Positions 58,255 through 63,233 of a DNA stretch of 64,000 bases are shown in pieces. The translations under genes were made by a program, and so were the position numbers. The notes under the pieces are model-generated. The model did no database searches and was not told where the DNA came from. It saw nothing but the letters and a program-made list of their open reading frames with translations. This stretch comes from a virus. The DNA is taken from positions 1-64,000 of the IMG/VR virus record IMGVR_UViG_3300035181_002522; one strand, given 5' to 3'. Position 1 is the first letter of the stretch. Every line of letters begins with the position of its first letter.

Positions 58255-59013
58255 TTAATTCTTACCTTCGTCTCGTTTTCTTTTTCTAAATGATTGTTTT
58301 AAGTCAAACCCTTTTGAAACAATAAGGTCTTTATCGGCTATTGTAACAGGTGGAACAATATCTAGATTATCTTTTAAGATGTTCCCAAGATAATAATCTA
58401 GTTCTTGATAAAGCCTTTCCGCTGGGTATATTGCAGCAAAACCAAGTTCTGAAAGTCTTGGAATATCTTCATTCACGTAAACATAAACACCATTAGTTTG
58501 AACCTTATGCTGTTTAGAATAAGTGAACCCATTGCAAGTAATATATCCATCAACAAAAAATACTGGCTGTTGAAGTATTCTGCTGACTTCAACTAGTTGG
58601 TCATTCCATTTTGGAATGAAATCTTTTTCATTAATTGGAGACCACCACCAATACAATAATTCTTTCTTTACTATTTGAAATATTCCAGCATCTGTCTCTG
58701 GATTATAAATTTTCCAGGAAGTCCATTTGTCACTGATATCAAATTTTTGTTTGATATTTTTACGAAAACAAAGGTACTGTTTACCACAAACAAAAAGGTA
58801 TTTAATTTGGATATCTTCAATGCCACGGTTAAAATTTAACTTAAATTCTTGAACCTTTAAAGGAACTAGCAAATCATAGCTAAATTCAAAGTTTAATTGT
58901 TTTTTAGCTCCTTCTAAAGATATTTTATTGCGAAGGTAGACAGTGTTAGTGTCTACCCCGAATTGTGTCGAACAGTAATCATAGTAGTCTTTATATTTAC
59001 TAACAATTTTCAC
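58255..59013 (-). CDS. conserved-looking phage hypothetical protein
   Basis: 252 aa; MKIVSKYKDYYD...GFDLKQSFR; AAGGAG RBS. Confidence 0.75.
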   Translation of the reverse strand: MKIVSKYKDYYDYCSTQFGVDTNTVYLRNKISLEGAKKQLNFEFSYDLLVPLKVQEFKLNFNRGIEDIQIKYLFVCGKQYLCFRKNIKQKFDISDKWTSWKIYNPETDAGIFQIVKKELLYWWWSPINEKDFIPKWNDQLVEVSRILQQPVFFVDGYITCNGFTYSKQHKVQTNGVYVYVNEDIPRLSELGFAAIYPAERLYQELDYYLGNILKDNLDIVPPVTIADKDLIVSKGFDLKQSFRKRKRDEGKN

Positions 59014-59068: not shown

Positions 59069-60661
59069 TTACAGTTTGCCTGTAGCGAAGTTGCTAATCA
59101 GTTGCGGAACAGCTGAATCAAAACCAACAATATCCAAAGAATGGCTATCAGTTGGGTCAGCTACGGAAAAGTTAGTGACCGTAGTACCACAAATGACATA
59201 TCTAGCTTCTTTGTTGAATGAACCGCGGAACTGCTCCAATGCTTGACGTGGGTGGCAACCACGATTAACTTCATTGTCAGTGATTGACACGAAACAATCC
59301 ACTGGCAATTTATTTGCAATTGCGTAATCGACTGGAGCGGCCAAGTTGGTAGAGCTCCAATTAAAACGACGTACAACTTCCATTGCTTCATTCAAACTCA
59401 TTCGGTCATGAATGTTCAGCTCGCTAAAGCCAGTGCTAAAGCCACAGATAACATAGTTTTTCTCGGTTTTCATGATAGCCATCGCGATAACAGTAGCCGC
59501 TTCAGCCGCAGTGATGTTGTCCAAACCATATACGTGAGTGTTAAACATTGAGCCAGAGCAGTCTATGCCAAGCAAGAAATTTTTGCCGGTTGGCTCAACA
59601 TTTTTGAAGGCTTCATAAAAAGCTGCGTCCAGTGCACTAACGATACGTTGGTTTGGTTGCCAAGTCAAAGAACCTTTAACACTACGTCCAGAACTGTAAG
59701 TTTTCAATGCAGCCAATACGTTGATTGGGTGAATACGAGAGCGCTTCAGTAATTCAGTATCAGAAAGTAAGTTGATAACAGTTTTTGATGCATCAGACAA
59801 TGAGCCTAACATACCAATGCTTGACATACGACCAAGGTTACGTAGCAACGCGGTATAACCGATTTTTTCAATTAGTTTTTCCCAGATTTGAGAATTACGT
59901 AATAGCTGAGTTGGCAGCATTTCCCAAGTTAATCCGTCGTTTTCGATTGCTATGATTGCATTTTTAACCGTTGGGTTTGCATGCAGTTCAGAGAAGACGC
60001 GAACAATTTTAGGAGAAGTTTCAGTGACTTCTTTTGTCACTGCCCAACGATACGCATTTGAGCGCTCTTCGGTATCTGGTTTAACGTGAGCCAAGCGCAA
60101 TACGTCACGGTGTGACCAACCATCACGGCTTTGGTATTTCAGCATTTGGAAAACAACTTTGTCGAGTTCTTTTTTGTTGTACCAGGCAGAGATACCACGT
60201 TTTGCAACTGCATTCCATTTACCTAACTGATTAACCGTCTCAACGAATTGAAACAAGTGTGTACCGATGCGGCAAACTTTTGGCAGAGCGTCATATGCAG
60301 CTTTACGACCAGCTTCATCAGCATAGATGGAAGTCAATGCCAAAGCGAAGATTGCTGGGTCATTTTTAGGTGCGCGACCGCCATTTGAAATTTCAACGAT
60401 ACGGTTAACAACAGTGATTGCGTCTTGTTTGATGAGCTTAATTACATTTGTCGCGGCAGCTTCAGTCAGTTTTTTTGCTGAAGTGTAGTACGTTGGGCGG
60501 TCACTTCCCAATATCAAAAATCTGTCCAAATAGCCCCAGTCATCAAGCTTAAACGTATAGCCACCAGTTGAGTTGACAACCATTTCAGCTTCACGACCAA
60601 CGATAGAACAAGTTACTGGAGTATTTTGAGTTGCTTGCTTGAGGGTTTTTGCATATGACAT
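59069..60661 (-). CDS. rsr: Ro60/TROVE-domain RNA-binding protein (Rsr)
   Basis: NSTGGYTF, LDRFLILGS..TYY, GRAPK, CRIGTHLF, KYQSRDGWSHRDVLRLAH, ALLRNLGRM, RIHP, vWA MIDAS DCSGSM, TDNE, GFDS. Confidence 0.95.
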   Translation of the reverse strand: MSYAKTLKQATQNTPVTCSIVGREAEMVVNSTGGYTFKLDDWGYLDRFLILGSDRPTYYTSAKKLTEAAATNVIKLIKQDAITVVNRIVEISNGGRAPKNDPAIFALALTSIYADEAGRKAAYDALPKVCRIGTHLFQFVETVNQLGKWNAVAKRGISAWYNKKELDKVVFQMLKYQSRDGWSHRDVLRLAHVKPDTEERSNAYRWAVTKEVTETSPKIVRVFSELHANPTVKNAIIAIENDGLTWEMLPTQLLRNSQIWEKLIEKIGYTALLRNLGRMSSIGMLGSLSDASKTVINLLSDTELLKRSRIHPINVLAALKTYSSGRSVKGSLTWQPNQRIVSALDAAFYEAFKNVEPTGKNFLLGIDCSGSMFNTHVYGLDNITAAEAATVIAMAIMKTEKNYVICGFSTGFSELNIHDRMSLNEAMEVVRRFNWSSTNLAAPVDYAIANKLPVDCFVSITDNEVNRGCHPRQALEQFRGSFNKEARYVICGTTVTNFSVADPTDSHSLDIVGFDSAVPQLISNFATGKL

Positions 60662-60694
60662 ATTACGGCTCCATTTATTAGGGCAAAATATAAA

Positions 60695-61016
60695 ACAACT
60701 TAGACAGCAAGTAGTGAAATCGGGAATTTCAGTTTACACCCTATCTTTCCATGCCGAAACAGAGGGTAAAGTACCACAGAGGTCATAACCTATCCTCACA
60801 AAGGGAGTAAGGAATCCCGTCGACAATTAACGTAGTGTCAACTCACGCTTAATAATTCGCTACTAAAAGCTAGTTATGATTTAGCTCATAACGGCATCCC
60901 TGTCACCTGCAGGTCTGGGTGCTCTTGAAGTCGGTCATCCTTTCGAATCCAAACCTTGCAAAAGCATTTATTAGTGACAGTTAAGATAACCAATTTCGAT
61001 CGGCAATCTAAGTTGT
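60695..61016 (-). ncRNA. Y RNA-like non-coding RNA (~322 nt) with large structured insert
   Basis: 5' ACAACUUAGA pairs perfectly with 3' UCUAAGUUGU. The adjacent GCCGA/UUGC helix has a bulged C, then GAAAUUGG/CCGAUUUC, then GUUAUC. Lies immediately upstream of Ro60 on the same strand. Confidence 0.78.
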
Positions 61017-61093
61017 AGTTTTTATCTGAACATTAAGTTCAAATTCGTTTCAAGCCAGAAAAGAGTAATTACTTATCAACCTGAAAAAAGGAT

Positions 61094-61143
61094 ATTATAA
61101 CACCACGTAAAATATTTTTACATTTTAGAACGTGGTGTTATAA
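61094..61143 (-). promoter_or_regulatory. promoter for the Y RNA-Ro60 unit, embedded in a 14-bp inverted repeat
   Basis: TGTAAA-17 nt-TATAAT (TG-extended); IR TTATAACACCACGT (61095-61108)/ACGTGGTGTTATAA (61130-61143). Confidence 0.55.
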
Positions 61144-61155
61144 CTTTGACAGGAA

Positions 61156-61719
61156 TTAAGCGTCTTTAGTCATCAGTACATCGTCAAACGCACCACCAGC
61201 TCCAAAATGAGCTTTAAGCTGATTATAAGCACGTTGATAAAAATTAAACATTTTGTCAATGTTCGTTTTTAATTTATTCATTGCCGTTGTATCACCACCT
61301 TTTGCGGCTTCTAACTGAGCACGCCATGCTTTCGCTAATGATGGGGCATGAGTTGCTCCAATATCTTGAAGTAGCTCATCAGCATTACGCTTTTCACTAA
61401 ATTCTTTGGGCGCATGCGGGTTATCTAAGCCGTCTAAGAATTTAAAAAAGTTTTTAGAAGCACCTGATTGGTCAATCTTAGAAAAATCGTCTATAACGTC
61501 ACGATCGTCTTTACGACCTAATAGCTGTAGCCCAGCTAGTGCGTTTGACATCTCGTCTAATTCATTATCTTCTAAACTTTCAAGTGGGTTTTCATTTTTC
61601 AAACCAAACTGCGCATGAAGATGTCCAAGGAACTTATCAACTCGTTCCATCAGAATAAATTCTTGCTTATGCTCGTCTCGAATGGTTTGCAACTCTACCA
61701 AGAGTTCAAGTGCAGCCAT
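61156..61719 (-). CDS. hypothetical helical protein (late)
   Basis: 187 aa; AAGGAG RBS; TATAAATA upstream at 61784-61791. Confidence 0.75.
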   Translation of the reverse strand: MAALELLVELQTIRDEHKQEFILMERVDKFLGHLHAQFGLKNENPLESLEDNELDEMSNALAGLQLLGRKDDRDVIDDFSKIDQSGASKNFFKFLDGLDNPHAPKEFSEKRNADELLQDIGATHAPSLAKAWRAQLEAAKGGDTTAMNKLKTNIDKMFNFYQRAYNQLKAHFGAGGAFDDVLMTKDA

Positions 61720-61802: not shown

Positions 61803-63233
61803 TGGAACTGCTACGAAAACTGACAGACTAAGGGTCTTGTCTCTGTCTCTGCGCGCTTATCTTCAGCTTTTCAAAAACGTAGCACTCATAAAAGGAGATT
61901 TAATTGCCTCTTTTTTATGAACTAATGAAGTACTATGAAAACTGACAGACTAAGGGTCTTGTCTGCGTCTCTGCGCGCTTATCTTCAGCTTTTCAAAAAC
62001 GTAGCCTTTATGAAATTCACTTCTATGCAATTTTAAAATTCAGCAAATAGGTTCATTTATAATTTCAATTAAAATTGCACAGAAGTGACCTGCGTCATTC
62101 AGATCAATCAAATTTCTTTTTTTCTTTTTGACTTATCTAGCATCATCTTTGTCTTTTTCCAAAACATAGCGTTTTTGAAAAGACGGATTATTTTGCCCTC
62201 TTTTTGTATCGATGAACTACTACGAAAACTGACAGACTAAGGGTCTTGTCTCTGTCTCTGCGCGCTTATCTTCAGCTTTTCAAAAACGTAGCACTCATAA
62301 AAGGAGACTTAATTTTCTCTTTTTTGTATCAGGGGAACTGCTACGAAAACTGACAGACTAAGGGTCTTGTCTGCGTCTCTGCGCATTTCTTTTTTCGTCT
62401 TTTTAAAAACGTAGCGTTCATGAAATTCACTTCTGTGCAATTTTAAAATTCAACAAATAGGTTCATTTATAATTTCAATTAAAATTCAACAGGGGTGACC
62501 TGCGTCATTCAGATCAATCAAATTTCTTTTTTTCTTTTTGACTTGTCTCGCATCATCTTTGTCTTTTTCCAAAACGTAGCGTTTTTTGTGAACTACTACG
62601 AAAACTGACAGACTAAGGGTCTTGTCTCTGTCTCTGCGCGCTTATCTTCAGCTTTTCAAAAACGTAGCACTCATAAAAGGAGATTTAATTGCCTCTTTTT
62701 TGGGACCAATGAACTGCTATGAAAACTGACAGACTAAGGGTCTTGTCTCGCTTGCAAATATTCTCTCTCTCGTCTTTTCAAAAACGTAGCCTTTTTAAAA
62801 ATCACTTCTGTGCTATTTTAAAATTCAGCAAATAGGTTCATTCATAATTTCAATCAAAATTCAACAGGGGTGACCTGTGTCATTCAGATCAATTGAATTT
62901 CTTTTTTTCTATTTTAACTTGTCTCGCTTGCAAATATTTCTCTCAGCTTTTTCCAAAATGCAGTGTTTTTGTGAACTGCTATGAAAACTGACAGACTAAG
63001 GGTCTTGTCTCTGTCTCGCAATTTCTTTTTTCGTCTTTTTGAAAACGTAGCACTCATAAAAAAAGAGACAATTAAGTCTCTTTTTTTTGAACTAATGAAG
63101 TACTACGAAAAAGGAGATTTAATTGCCTCTTTTTTGTATCAGCGAACTGCTACGAAAACTGACAGACTAAGGGTCTTGTCTGCGTCTCTGCGCATTTCTC
63201 TCAGCTTTTTTAAAAACGTAGCCTTTCCTCATC
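61803..63233. repeat. Modular non-coding repeat array 2 (8 full cores plus 1 truncated)
   Basis: Same core starts at 61816, 61938, 62225, 62346, 62601, 62722, 62984 and 63155, with a truncated copy near 63101. Same B and C modules as array 1. Confidence 0.95.

What the first reader, a model, noticed from the sequence alone, without database searches (positions are those of the whole stretch)
60695..61016. Oversized (~320 nt) phage Y RNA with a large, unrecognised effector domain, upstream of Ro60
Seen: on the minus strand the ends pair (ACAACUUAGA/UCUAAGUUGU). They continue into GCCGA/UUGC with a bulged C, an internal loop (UC / ACUAC) and GAAAUUGG/CCGAUUUC, followed by GUUAUC. Knowledge: Ro60 binds Y RNAs through a 5'/3' terminal stem with a bulged C (GUCCGA/UUGAC in vertebrates; as I recall, human Y1 also has GUUAUC and CACUAC at matching positions). 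Bacterial Y RNA genes sit next to rsr and are modular, with a Ro-binding stem plus an effector module (tRNA-like in YrlA). Typical Y RNAs are roughly 80-150 nt. Here the loop is replaced by ~250 nt of extra helices: CUGUCAC/GUGACAG enclosing UGCAAGGUUUGG/CCAGACCUGCA and a GAAA tetraloop hairpin; GUUAUGA/UCAUAAC; GUUGACA/UGUCGAC; AGGU/ACCU; UUUACCCU/AGGGUGUAAA; and a possible long-range AUGCCG/CGGCAU pseudoknot. Inference: a new class of large Y RNA that tethers phage Ro60 to an unknown partner, or that carries a scaffold, decoy or catalytic domain.
Basis: partly seen in the sequence, partly recalled or inferred. Interest (0 to 1): 0.88.

Follow-up and report, generated by a model that had tools for sequence, protein, structure and literature searches.

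The report
Oversized phage Y RNA beside Ro60
Just upstream of a large phage's Ro60 gene lies a real, conserved RNA of about 320 bases whose paired ends form the Ro60-docking stem of Y RNAs. Its middle is a 265-base multi-hairpin domain of unknown partner, and RNAs of this layout recur in dozens of large uncultured phages.

Summary
On the minus strand of 60695-61016 a perfect 10-bp terminal stem runs into a bulged-C helix (GCCGA/UUGC), an 8-bp helix and GGUUAUC, directly upstream of a TROVE+vWA Ro60 gene.

No Rfam 15 family matches. RNAs with the same frame and a 200-330-nt interior precede Ro60 genes in at least 29 related phage contigs, many of them 300-460 kb. A covariance model built without the window finds them. 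On their alignment 89% of cells pair (61% shuffled, 36-42% slid), and 57 of 69 pairs change on both sides.

In 170 Ro60 loci the Y-type RNAs fall into three size classes: 61-74 nt, 82-174 nt (mostly tRNA-like YrlA type) and 207-338 nt. The last class mostly lacks the T-arm motif.

The window's interior shares the layout: a GAAA-capped hairpin, four tandem hairpins, UAGG, a 3' subdomain and CUGAAAUUCC. Compensatory changes in its two nearest relatives support it. Sub-models of the interior alone do not reach it, so its homology to the wider family is likely, not proven.

Best reading: a Y RNA with a new large effector domain. This scan noted a ~300-nt Y RNA before, on other DNA (e1-5407377). 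Partner, transcript ends and binding are untested.

The parts
60695..61016 (-). Whole candidate RNA (322 nt), bounded by the terminal stem. True transcript ends are not determined.
   Evidence: Model R1, built without the window, matches 60699-61012 at 20 bits, E about 4e-5 to 9e-5.
61007..61016 (-). P1, 5' strand (ACAACUUAGA)
   Evidence: Perfect 10-bp complement of 60695-60704. All 10 P1 pairs change on both sides across 29 relatives.
60695..60704 (-). P1, 3' strand (UCUAAGUUGU), followed by a U-rich tail (UUUAUAUUUU)
61000..61006 (-). Ro60-site 5' strand UUGCCGA, with bulged C at 61003. GCCGAUCG resembles the bacterial motif GNCGAAN0-1G (5 of its 6 fixed positions).
   Evidence: The motif is from Chen 2014, PMC4201824. 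G-C to A-U compensation in L004.
60705..60710 (-). Ro60-site 3' strand UUGCUG, preceded by the internal-loop letters ACUAC (60711-60715)
60985..60997 (-). P3 5' strand GAAAUUGG, overlapping the conserved GGUUAUC
   Evidence: GUUGG/CCGAC-type P3 is present in all 29 aligned relatives; UUAUC is nearly invariant.
60716..60732 (-). CUGAAAUUCC motif and P3 3' strand CCGAUUUC
   Evidence: YYGAARUYYCCRAY is conserved before P3' in large and small Y RNAs.
60920..60966 (-). Long irregular hairpin capped by a GAAA tetraloop (core AUUC-GAAA-GGAU at 60937-60948, with a GA bulge)
   Evidence: The core of the hairpin (about RNA 61-89) is kept in L004; its extension to RNA 51-97 was read by eye in the window only. 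About half the family has the counterpart block GC-AA-GUU-GAAA-GAC-AA-GC.
60899..60913 (-). CCUGCAGGUGACAGG block, identical in the window, L004 and L005. It contains the palindrome (A)CCUGCAGG(U).
   Evidence: Its pairing partner is unresolved.
60873..60892 (-). Hairpin H1 (GUUAUGA-GCUAAA-UCAUAAC), followed by UAG
   Evidence: Four compensatory pairs against L004, more with L005.
60849..60866 (-). Hairpin H2 (UUAGUA-GCGAAU-UAUUAA)
60819..60842 (-). Hairpin H3 (GUUGACA-loop with CGUUAA-UGUCGAC)
   Evidence: Compensatory changes in L004 and L005.
60787..60813 (-). Hairpin H4 (UCCUUAC/GUGAGGA), followed by UAGGUU. This is the counterpart of the family's most conserved element, UACC-stem-loop-stem-GGUGUAGG.
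   Evidence: The correspondence was made by eye and through L005. Model R2 does not reach the window.
60733..60786 (-). 3' subdomain, including the small UGU-UUCG-GCA hairpin (60752-60761). The inner fold is unsettled.
   Evidence: (helices 11 and 12 of the family).
59069..60661 (-). Ro60 gene (530 aa, TROVE + Ro60 vWA), the presumed protein partner

Best explanation
This is a Y-type noncoding RNA of a large, AT-rich uncultured phage. The contig held is 164 kb and is estimated 46% complete.

Shown from sequence:
- The paired 5' and 3' ends form the Ro60-docking helix of Y RNAs: P1, a bulged C, C-G/G.U/A-U, P3 and GGUUAUC.
- Where ordinary Y RNAs have a small loop, or YrlA has a tRNA-like module, this RNA has about 265 nt. 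That stretch folds into a GAAA-capped hairpin, four tandem hairpins and a 3' subdomain.
- RNAs with the same frame and layout are conserved, with covariation, beside Ro60 genes of many large phages.

Inferred by analogy with characterised Ro60/Y RNA particles:
- The phage Ro60 grips the terminal stem.
- The large domain is the effector module. It either tethers Ro60 to another factor or controls access to the Ro60 ring during infection. The most economical guess for the factor is a host 3'-5' exoribonuclease such as PNPase, as in the Deinococcus and Thermus-phage complexes.
- The RNA is probably made on one transcript with Ro60, or with neighbouring Y RNAs, and then trimmed to the stem.
For: - Anatomy in the window.
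- A Ro60 gene lies 33 nt downstream.
- The same frame with a 200-330-nt interior occurs upstream of Ro60 in L004, L005, L008, L010, L011 and L013. Gene order is shared: 186-aa ORF, RNA, Ro60, 230-250-aa ORF, DHFR.
- It also occurs in more than 25 further metagenome and IMG/VR contigs.
- Model R1, built from four sequences unrelated to the window's clade, finds 29 large RNAs including the window.
- On that alignment 89.2% of cells pair, against 60.9% shuffled and 36-42% slid. 57 of 69 pairs change on both sides. The covariation score is 0.48 against 0.07-0.10 slid.
- Window, L004 and L005 together give 16 pairs with compensatory change in H1-H4.
- Size classes are 61-74, 82-174 and 207-338 nt. 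The T-arm motif occurs in 26 of 34 mid-size RNAs but only 2 of 19 large ones.
- The RNA is not merely a Ro60 leader: an ORF separates RNA and Ro60 in L016 and L121.
- Sigma-70-type -10 boxes end 1-11 nt before P1 in eight relatives, among them L005, L008, L010 and L011; seven fall in the 3-12-nt window that I scored.
- Precedents: Y RNAs are modular and sit next to Ro60 in more than 250 bacteria and phages (PMC4201824). A Thermus phage Ro60 binds two upstream Y-like RNAs and host PNPase (PMC12135203).
Against:
- No promoter sits next to P1 in the window. The nearest -10-like box, TGTTATAAT at 61094-61102, lies 78 nt upstream, and no terminator was called.
- The window's score against R1 (20 bits) is no higher than that of 65-75-nt Y RNAs, which match only the frame. 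In the alignment, its H2-H4 fall into insertions.
- Model R2 (H3-H4 of the family) finds held-out members but not the window or L004.
- Model R3 (window clade) reaches only one distant member.
- The genome search with R1 on the phage's own record reported nothing at E <= 0.001.
- No PNPase/RNase PH, RtcB, Rnl2 or CCA-adding enzyme is encoded on the 164 kb held. The partner is therefore pure inference.
Confidence: 0.7

Rival explanations
1. The structure is a cis-acting leader of the Ro60 mRNA. Ro60, or another factor, binds it to set Ro60 translation or transcript stability, and there is no free trans-acting RNA.
For: - Same strand as Ro60, only 33 nt from the start codon.
- No promoter-like or terminator-like site was called between the RNA and Ro60.
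- A Ro-site-like mini-hairpin sits at the ribosome-binding site of Ro60 in 61 of 163 loci, so autoregulation of this gene is plausible.
Against: - In L016 and L121 an ORF lies between the large RNA and Ro60.
- In many loci the large RNA follows a small Y RNA in a tandem array.
- Bacterial Y RNAs are known to be co-transcribed with rsr and processed out, so co-transcription does not argue against a free RNA (my knowledge of the Salmonella rsr-yrlBA-rtcBA operon).
- A 265-nt conserved multi-hairpin domain is far more than an operator needs.
Confidence: 0.12
2. The interior is an autonomous functional RNA that uses the Y stem only as a stabilising or Ro60-loading clamp. Examples would be a decoy for a host defence or RNA-binding protein, a self-assembling scaffold, or a ribozyme. 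Its main activity would then be independent of Ro60's RNA-surveillance role.
For: - A Ro60-like protein of phage Bas63 was reported to counter the ppl defence system (bioRxiv 10.1101/2024.10.10.617714).
- A conserved 8-10-nt palindrome (CCUGCAGG) in the window's clade could mediate RNA-RNA pairing.
- Many family hairpin loops carry NCGAAY motifs.
Against: - No match to any ribozyme or large phage RNA family in Rfam.
- The palindrome is restricted to three sequences.
- Nothing in the data points to a specific target.
Confidence: 0.13
3. The fold is a chance or relic structure in a long intergenic spacer and has no function.
For: AT-rich phage spacers fold readily. The window's own interior is not reached by sub-models of the family.
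Against: - z = -3.37.
- The frame and four hairpins are kept with compensatory changes at 76% and about 60% sequence identity.
- Family-wide covariation.
Confidence: 0.03

Closest known systems
Bacterial and phage Y RNAs of the YrlA/YrlB/Yrn1 type (Chen et al. 2014, PMC4201824), and Yrl1/Yrl2 of Thermus phage phiLo (PMC12135203)
   Same: - Encoded next to Ro60 on the same strand.
- 5'/3' terminal stem with a bulged-C helix and a CCGA-type 5' strand resembling GNCGAAN0-1G.
- Modular build, with an effector part inserted above the docking stem.
- Often occur in tandem with a small hairpin-type Y RNA. A 70-nt one lies elsewhere in this phage.
   Different: - Two to four times longer.
- The effector part is not tRNA-like: no T or D arm, and nothing from ARAGORN.
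- It is instead a multi-hairpin domain of about 265 nt.
- Not detected by any Rfam model, even at E <= 10.
Vertebrate Y RNAs (hY1, hY4; Rfam Y_RNA)
   Same: - The order of elements in the frame is the same: stem, bulged C, CCGA/UUG, second helix, then GGUUAUC on the 5' side and CACUAC on the 3' side.
- This comparison rests on my recollection of the hY1 and hY4 sequences. An earlier scan note (e1-5401748) made the same point.
   Different: - About 100 nt with a pyrimidine-rich loop, made by RNA polymerase III.
- No large structured insert.
- The Rfam Y_RNA model gives no match here.
Large structured phage-associated RNAs (GOLLD, ROOL and similar Rfam families)
   Same: Several hundred nucleotides, multi-hairpin, found in phage genomes, function unknown.
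   Different: - No covariance-model match.
- Those RNAs have no Ro60-docking stem and, as far as I know, no tie to Ro60 genes.

Membership tests
Y RNA (Ro60-associated ncRNA, broad sense) | Encoded adjacent to a Ro60/Rsr gene | tested here: met
   The RNA ends 33 nt before the Ro60 start. TROVE and vWA_Ro60 domains confirmed.
Y RNA (Ro60-associated ncRNA, broad sense) | 5' and 3' ends pair into a long stem | tested here: met
   10-bp perfect P1. All 10 pairs covary in 29 relatives.
Y RNA (Ro60-associated ncRNA, broad sense) | Conserved bulged helix that Ro60 recognises (bulged C; C-G, G.U, A-U; bacterial motif GNCGAAN0-1G) | tested here: met
   GCCGA/UUGC with bulged C at 61003. The CCG...UG core recurs in the relatives found with it. 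The motif matches at 5 of its 6 fixed positions (GCCGAUCG); motif from PMC4201824.
Y RNA (Ro60-associated ncRNA, broad sense) | Physical binding to Ro60 | not testable with these tools
   Needs EMSA or pull-down. Complex prediction does not take RNA.
Y RNA (Ro60-associated ncRNA, broad sense) | Small size (about 70-150 nt) | tested here: not met
   322 nt. It belongs to the 207-338-nt class.
Rfam Y_RNA / YrlA covariance models | Match to the curated model | tested here: not met
   No match at the gathering score, nor at E <= 10 on 601 nt, nor in 11 relatives at E <= 5.
YrlA subfamily | tRNA-like effector domain (T arm GGUUCGA-type, D arm, acceptor-like stem) | tested here: not met
   No tRNA-like gene from ARAGORN in the window or in 38 loci. 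The T-arm motif occurs in 2 of 19 large RNAs against 26 of 34 mid-size ones.
Large Ro60-adjacent RNA family defined here (model R1) | Full-length match to a model built without the window | tested here: met
   20 bits, E about 4e-5 to 9e-5, model positions 1-277. Most of the score comes from the frame, and the genome search with R1 gave nothing on the phage's own record.
Large Ro60-adjacent RNA family defined here (model R1) | Interior core (H3-H4 with UACC...GGUGUAGG) recognisable on its own | tested here: not met
   R2 finds the held-out members L110, L097, L113, L128 and L125 (E 4e-9 to 0.02), and L005 only weakly (E 0.07). It does not find the window or L004. The layout is shared by eye and through the intermediate L005.

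The most novel reading that the evidence does not exclude
The 200-330-nt interior is a new, autonomously folding RNA domain. It would recruit a partner other than PNPase (a host defence, repair or translation factor), or build a higher-order Ro60 particle. That would give jumbo-type phages a Ro60 RNP with a function not seen in bacteria or animals.
Probability: 0.25. Interest if true: 0.85.

Novelty: new variant of a known kind. Interest (0 to 1): 0.62.

Why it matters
- **What is already known.** Y RNAs are thought to give Ro60 its specificity through their variable module. So far only two module types are understood: PNPase-binding loops and tRNA mimics.
- **What this adds.** A third module type that is conserved, covarying and 2-4 times larger, in many large phages. 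It offers a defined bait for finding a new Ro60 partner and for asking what phages use Ro60 for, which is still open.
- **A practical gain.** The family is absent from Rfam, so these loci are currently annotated as empty intergenic DNA.

Tried and rejected
- **Rfam.** Nothing relevant at the gathering score on the whole window, at E-value threshold on 601 nt, or on 11 relatives.
- **Phage GenBank collection.** blastn of the gap gave no match. The Ro60 protein has only relatives below 45% identity there, all actinophages.
- **Alignment tools.** MAFFT alone gave unusable alignments of the interior. mafft-qinsi and mafft-xinsi are not installed.
- **UUAUC x GAUAG long-range pairing.** RNAalifold suggested it in the seed. 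It pairs in 67% of cells against 41-52% slid, and UUAAC variants keep GAUAG, so it is unresolved.
CUGUCAC/GUGACAG, UUUACCCU/AGGGUGUAAA and the AUGCCG/CGGCAU pseudoknot are not conserved in L004.
- **Interior sub-models.** R2 and R3 did not link the window's interior to the main family beyond L005 and L101.
- **Downstream 252-aa protein.** The AlphaFold model had pLDDT 55, too poor for a fold search. Pfam and PDB sequence searches gave nothing; PHROGs gave phrog_4243, of unknown function.
- **Partner enzymes on the phage record.** RtcB, RNase PH/PNPase, Rnl2 and CCA-adding enzyme families were all absent from the 164 kb held.
- **Neighbouring repeat array.** 61805-63222 carries no Y-RNA signature.

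Full report
**1. The observation**

Read on the minus strand, 60695-61016 begins ACAACUUAGA and ends UCUAAGUUGU. The repeat finder reports these arms as 10 nt, 100% complementary and 302 nt apart.

After a small internal loop (UC / ACUAC) comes the 8-bp helix GAAAUUGG/CCGAUUUC, and then GGUUAUC.

The 322-nt strand folds at -95.4 kcal/mol, z = -3.37, and no shuffle out of 100 folds as well.

The ORF 33 nt downstream (59069-60661, minus strand, 530 aa) is a canonical Ro60. It matches TROVE at 1.6e-40 and the Ro60 vWA domain at 3.1e-46, and falls in PHROG 850, 'RNA-binding protein'.

The window is the first 64 kb of a 164-kb, 36% G+C IMG/VR virus record with a CheckV completeness estimate of 46%.

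**2. It matches no catalogued RNA**

Rfam 15 gives no match above gathering score anywhere in the window. It gives nothing relevant at E <= 10 on 60600-61200. It gives nothing in the corresponding region of 11 related loci at E <= 5. ARAGORN finds no tRNA-like gene in the window or in 38 related loci.

**3. Relatives**

The Ro60 protein has many homologues in metagenomes, at 88%, 65%, 60% and then about 50-58% identity.

I fetched the contigs that encode the closest ones. They share the gene order 186-aa ORF, a 350-490-nt gap, Ro60, a 230-250-aa ORF of unknown function, DHFR. In six of them the gap holds an RNA with the same frame as the window:
- a terminal stem X;
- a bulged C, then CG;
- a second helix, then (G)GUUAUC;
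- on the 3' side YUGAAAUUCC, the partner strand of the second helix, UUUG, and the complement of X.

The interior of these RNAs is 200-260 nt. In the seventh (L007) the same frame closes after only 66 nt and a tRNA gene lies beside it. This shows that the large interior is an insertion into an ordinary small Y RNA.

Two scans with an alignment of Ro60 proteins brought in 160 further loci, 80 from metagenomes and 80 from IMG/VR. Many come from contigs of 300-460 kb.

A simple pattern script recovered 97 distinct Y-type RNAs from these loci. It looks for X-CCG ... UUAUC ... UG-X'. The lengths fall into three groups: 61-74 nt (42 RNAs), 82-174 nt (34) and 207-338 nt (19). A T-arm-like motif occurs in 26 of the 34 mid-size RNAs, which are the YrlA type, but in only 2 of the 19 large ones. 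Relaxed searches and inspection raised the number of large RNAs to more than 30.

**4. Family model and covariation**

I seeded a covariance model (R1: 277 positions, 69 pairs) from four mutually related large RNAs, L138, L124, L114 and L115. Their Ro60 proteins are only 47-48% identical to the window's (best tblastn segment).

R1 finds 29 large RNAs across the loci, including:
- L022: 101 bits
- L019: 60 bits
- L005: 33 bits
- L004: 32 bits
- the window at 60699-61012: 20 bits, E about 4e-5 to 9e-5

.

On the resulting alignment:
- 89.2% of cells form standard pairs, against 60.9% in column shuffles and 36-42% when partners are slid by 1-3 columns.
- 57 of 69 pairs show changes on both sides.
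- The covariation score is 0.48, against 0.07-0.10 when slid.
- Eleven of the 12 helices contain such pairs. The exception is the highly conserved GAAA-capped block.

The alignment is fitted to the model, which inflates these numbers. The gap to the slid controls is nevertheless large.

The consensus layout, in order, is:
- P1;
- bulged-C site;
- P3, then GGUUAUC;
- a linker;
- a domain ending in the hairpin GC-AA-GUU-GAAA-GAC-AA-GC (present in about half the members);
- H1 (then GAUAG);
- H2;
- H3 (then GAUAGG);
- H4 (UACC-stem-NCGAAYN-stem-GGU, then GUAGG);
- a helix that closes a variable 3' subdomain;
- GAAAUYU;
- P3', UUUUG, P1'

.

**5. Where the window's RNA stands in this family**

Its frame is a clear member. 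Its interior has the same order of elements:
- a long GAAA-capped hairpin (60920-60966);
- H1 (60873-60892, followed by UAG);
- H2 (60849-60866);
- H3 (60819-60842);
- H4 (60793-60813, followed by UAGGUU);
- a 3' subdomain with a small UUCG hairpin;
- CUGAAAUUCC

.

Against L004 (RNA 76% identical) 13 predicted pairs carry compensatory changes. With L005 added, 16 pairs do, spread over H1-H4. L005 also bridges to the main family. It shares the 15-nt block CCUGCAGGUGACAGG with the window, and it shares H4 followed by GGUGUAGG with the family.

The statistical link of the window's interior to the main family is weak, for four reasons:
- In the R1 alignment the window's H2-H4 are pushed into insertions. 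Small Y RNAs that share only the frame score as high as the window.
- Model R2, built on H3-H4 alone, finds five held-out members at E 4e-9 to 0.02 and L005 only weakly (E 0.07), but not the window or L004.
- Model R3, built from the window clade, reaches only L101.
- The genome search with R1 on the phage's own record reported nothing.

I therefore rate homology of the interior to the main family as likely, about three in four, rather than shown. Its conservation within its own clade is shown.

**6.

| Helix | Result in L004 |
|---|---|
| Terminal stem | kept |
| Bulged-C helix | kept |
| GAAAUUGG/CCGAUUUC | kept |
| GUUAUGA/UCAUAAC | kept, compensatory |
| GUUGACA/UGUCGAC | kept, compensatory |
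| GAAA hairpin | kept |
| CUGUCAC/GUGACAG | 4/7, not kept |
| UGCAAGG.../CCAGACC... | poor |
| UUUACCCU/AGGGUGUAAA | 3/8, not kept |
| AUGCCG/CGGCAU pseudoknot | 2/6, not kept |

In the pairwise fold it is kept in L004 through one G-C to G-U change. It competes with a family-supported helix that uses the same GG.

**7. Free RNA or leader?**

*For co-transcription with Ro60.* The RNA is on the same strand and 33 nt from the start codon. No promoter-like or terminator-like site was called in between.

*For a separate RNA.*
- In L016 and L121 an ORF lies between the large RNA and Ro60.
- In many loci the large RNA follows a small Y RNA in tandem.
- In eight relatives, among them L005, L008, L010 and L011, a sigma-70-type -10 box ends 1-11 nt before P1; seven fall in the 3-12-nt window that I scored.
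- P1 is followed by a U-rich tract.

In the window and in L004 the nearest -10-like box is TGTTATAAT at 61094-61102, which is 78 nt upstream. The stretch between it and the RNA is conserved, so the primary transcript may be longer than 322 nt.

Co-transcription followed by processing is the norm for bacterial Y RNAs. That is my knowledge of the Salmonella rsr-yrlBA-rtcBA operon. The two readings are therefore not exclusive.

**8. Mechanism**

*What is shown.* A Ro60-docking frame of the kind described for bacterial and phage Y RNAs carries a conserved structured domain that is not tRNA-like.

*What is inferred.* Ro60 binds the stem. The domain acts as the effector module, tethering a partner or gating the Ro60 ring.

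*Precedents.*
- The modular architecture and the GNCGAA-type site (PMC4201824).
- The complexes of phage phiLo Ro60, Yrl RNAs and host PNPase (PMC12135203).
- A report that a Ro60-like protein of phage Bas63 counters the ppl defence system (bioRxiv 10.1101/2024.10.10.617714).

The 164 kb held encodes no RtcB, RNase PH/PNPase, Rnl2 or CCA-adding enzyme. Any partner is therefore host-encoded, lies on the missing half of the genome, or belongs to an unrecognised family. The conserved 252-aa protein downstream of Ro60 is one such candidate, but its fold could not be predicted with confidence.

**9. Novelty**

I found no paper describing Y RNAs of this size or this domain, and Rfam lacks the family.

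Earlier notes of this scan bear on the finding:
- e1-5407377 reported, on another genome, a tandem of one ordinary and one ~300-nt Y RNA before a T4-like phage's Ro60 gene. This matches the arrangement I see in L016.
- e1-5401748 noted the GGUUAUC handle.

The finding is thus a new variant of a known kind, a third and large class of Y RNA effector module. It is not a new kind of system.

Noticed in passing
window 60662-60694 (minus strand), between the RNA and the Ro60 start codon: A mini-hairpin carries the Ro60-site signature in permuted order, 5'-UUUG-X'-loop-X-C-CG-3'. It occurs within about 110 nt upstream of the Ro60 start in 61 of 163 loci (about 10 expected from shuffles), and X/X' covary between loci. 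In the window's clade X is the Shine-Dalgarno GGAG itself. The window reads UUUUG-CCCU-AAUAAAU-GGAG-CCG-UAAU-AUG and its stem is weak (3 of 4 pairs). This suggests that Ro60 represses its own translation. The scan has noted the same element on other genomes (e1-5659081, e1-2694084).
   Followed up: partly
same phage record outside the window, G000:C1:118365-118436 (plus strand), inside the tRNA gene cluster at 114.7-133.4 kb: A second, small (about 70 nt) canonical Y RNA: AAAGUAAAAA-C-CG ... GGGUUAUC ... UUUUUUG-UUUUUACUUU. A TGTATAAT box ends 8 nt before it. The phage therefore has one small and one large Y RNA, 57 kb apart, plus 11 tRNA genes.
   Followed up: partly
window 61094-61143: A perfect 14-bp inverted repeat (61095-61108 / 61130-61143) lies right after the stop of the upstream 187-aa ORF. 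Its downstream arm, as read on the minus strand, contains an extended -10-like TGTTATAAT. This looks like a terminator overlapping a promoter. The arrangement is kept in L004 with different stem letters.
   Followed up: no
window 61017-61093 (minus strand): The 77 nt between that -10 box and the RNA are conserved in L004. They include GAAACGAAUUUGAAC and a small hairpin (UGAAC-loop-GUUCA) whose loop differs. This may be a 5' extension of the RNA or a phage-specific promoter.
   Followed up: no
window 60899-60913 (minus strand): The block CCUGCAGGUGACAGG is identical in the window, L004 and L005. It contains the self-complementary (A)CCUGCAGG(U), which could support RNA-RNA kissing or dimerisation. 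An alternative local hairpin CA(C/U)C...GGUG is also possible.
   Followed up: no
window 58255-59013 (minus strand): A 252-aa protein directly downstream of Ro60 (phrog_4243, unknown function) keeps this position in L004, L005, L008 and L013, and lies two small ORFs further downstream in L010. It has no Pfam or PDB sequence match, and the AlphaFold model was poor (pLDDT 55). It is a possible protein partner of the module.
   Followed up: partly
window 61805-63222: The repeat array noted by the first stage (e1-5738818, e1-5738810) carries no Y-RNA signature: no X-CCG ... UUAUC ... UG-X'. Read on the minus strand, the units are closed by GCUACG/CGUAGC and contain a GACAGA...UCUGUC hairpin.
   Followed up: partly
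L002:2540-3000 and L001:2440-2990 (IMG/VR contigs with Ro60 41-43% identical): Arrays of three to five Y modules lie upstream of Ro60. Some are built into tRNA-shaped bodies, with D-arm and T-arm letters flanking a GGGUCGA...GGUUAUC module.
   Followed up: no
method note, G000: cmsearch with R1 reports the window's RNA at E about 4e-5 to 9e-5. The genome search with the same model on the phage's own record reports nothing at E <= 0.001. The likely cause is that its first-look candidates cut the 320-nt match.
   Followed up: no
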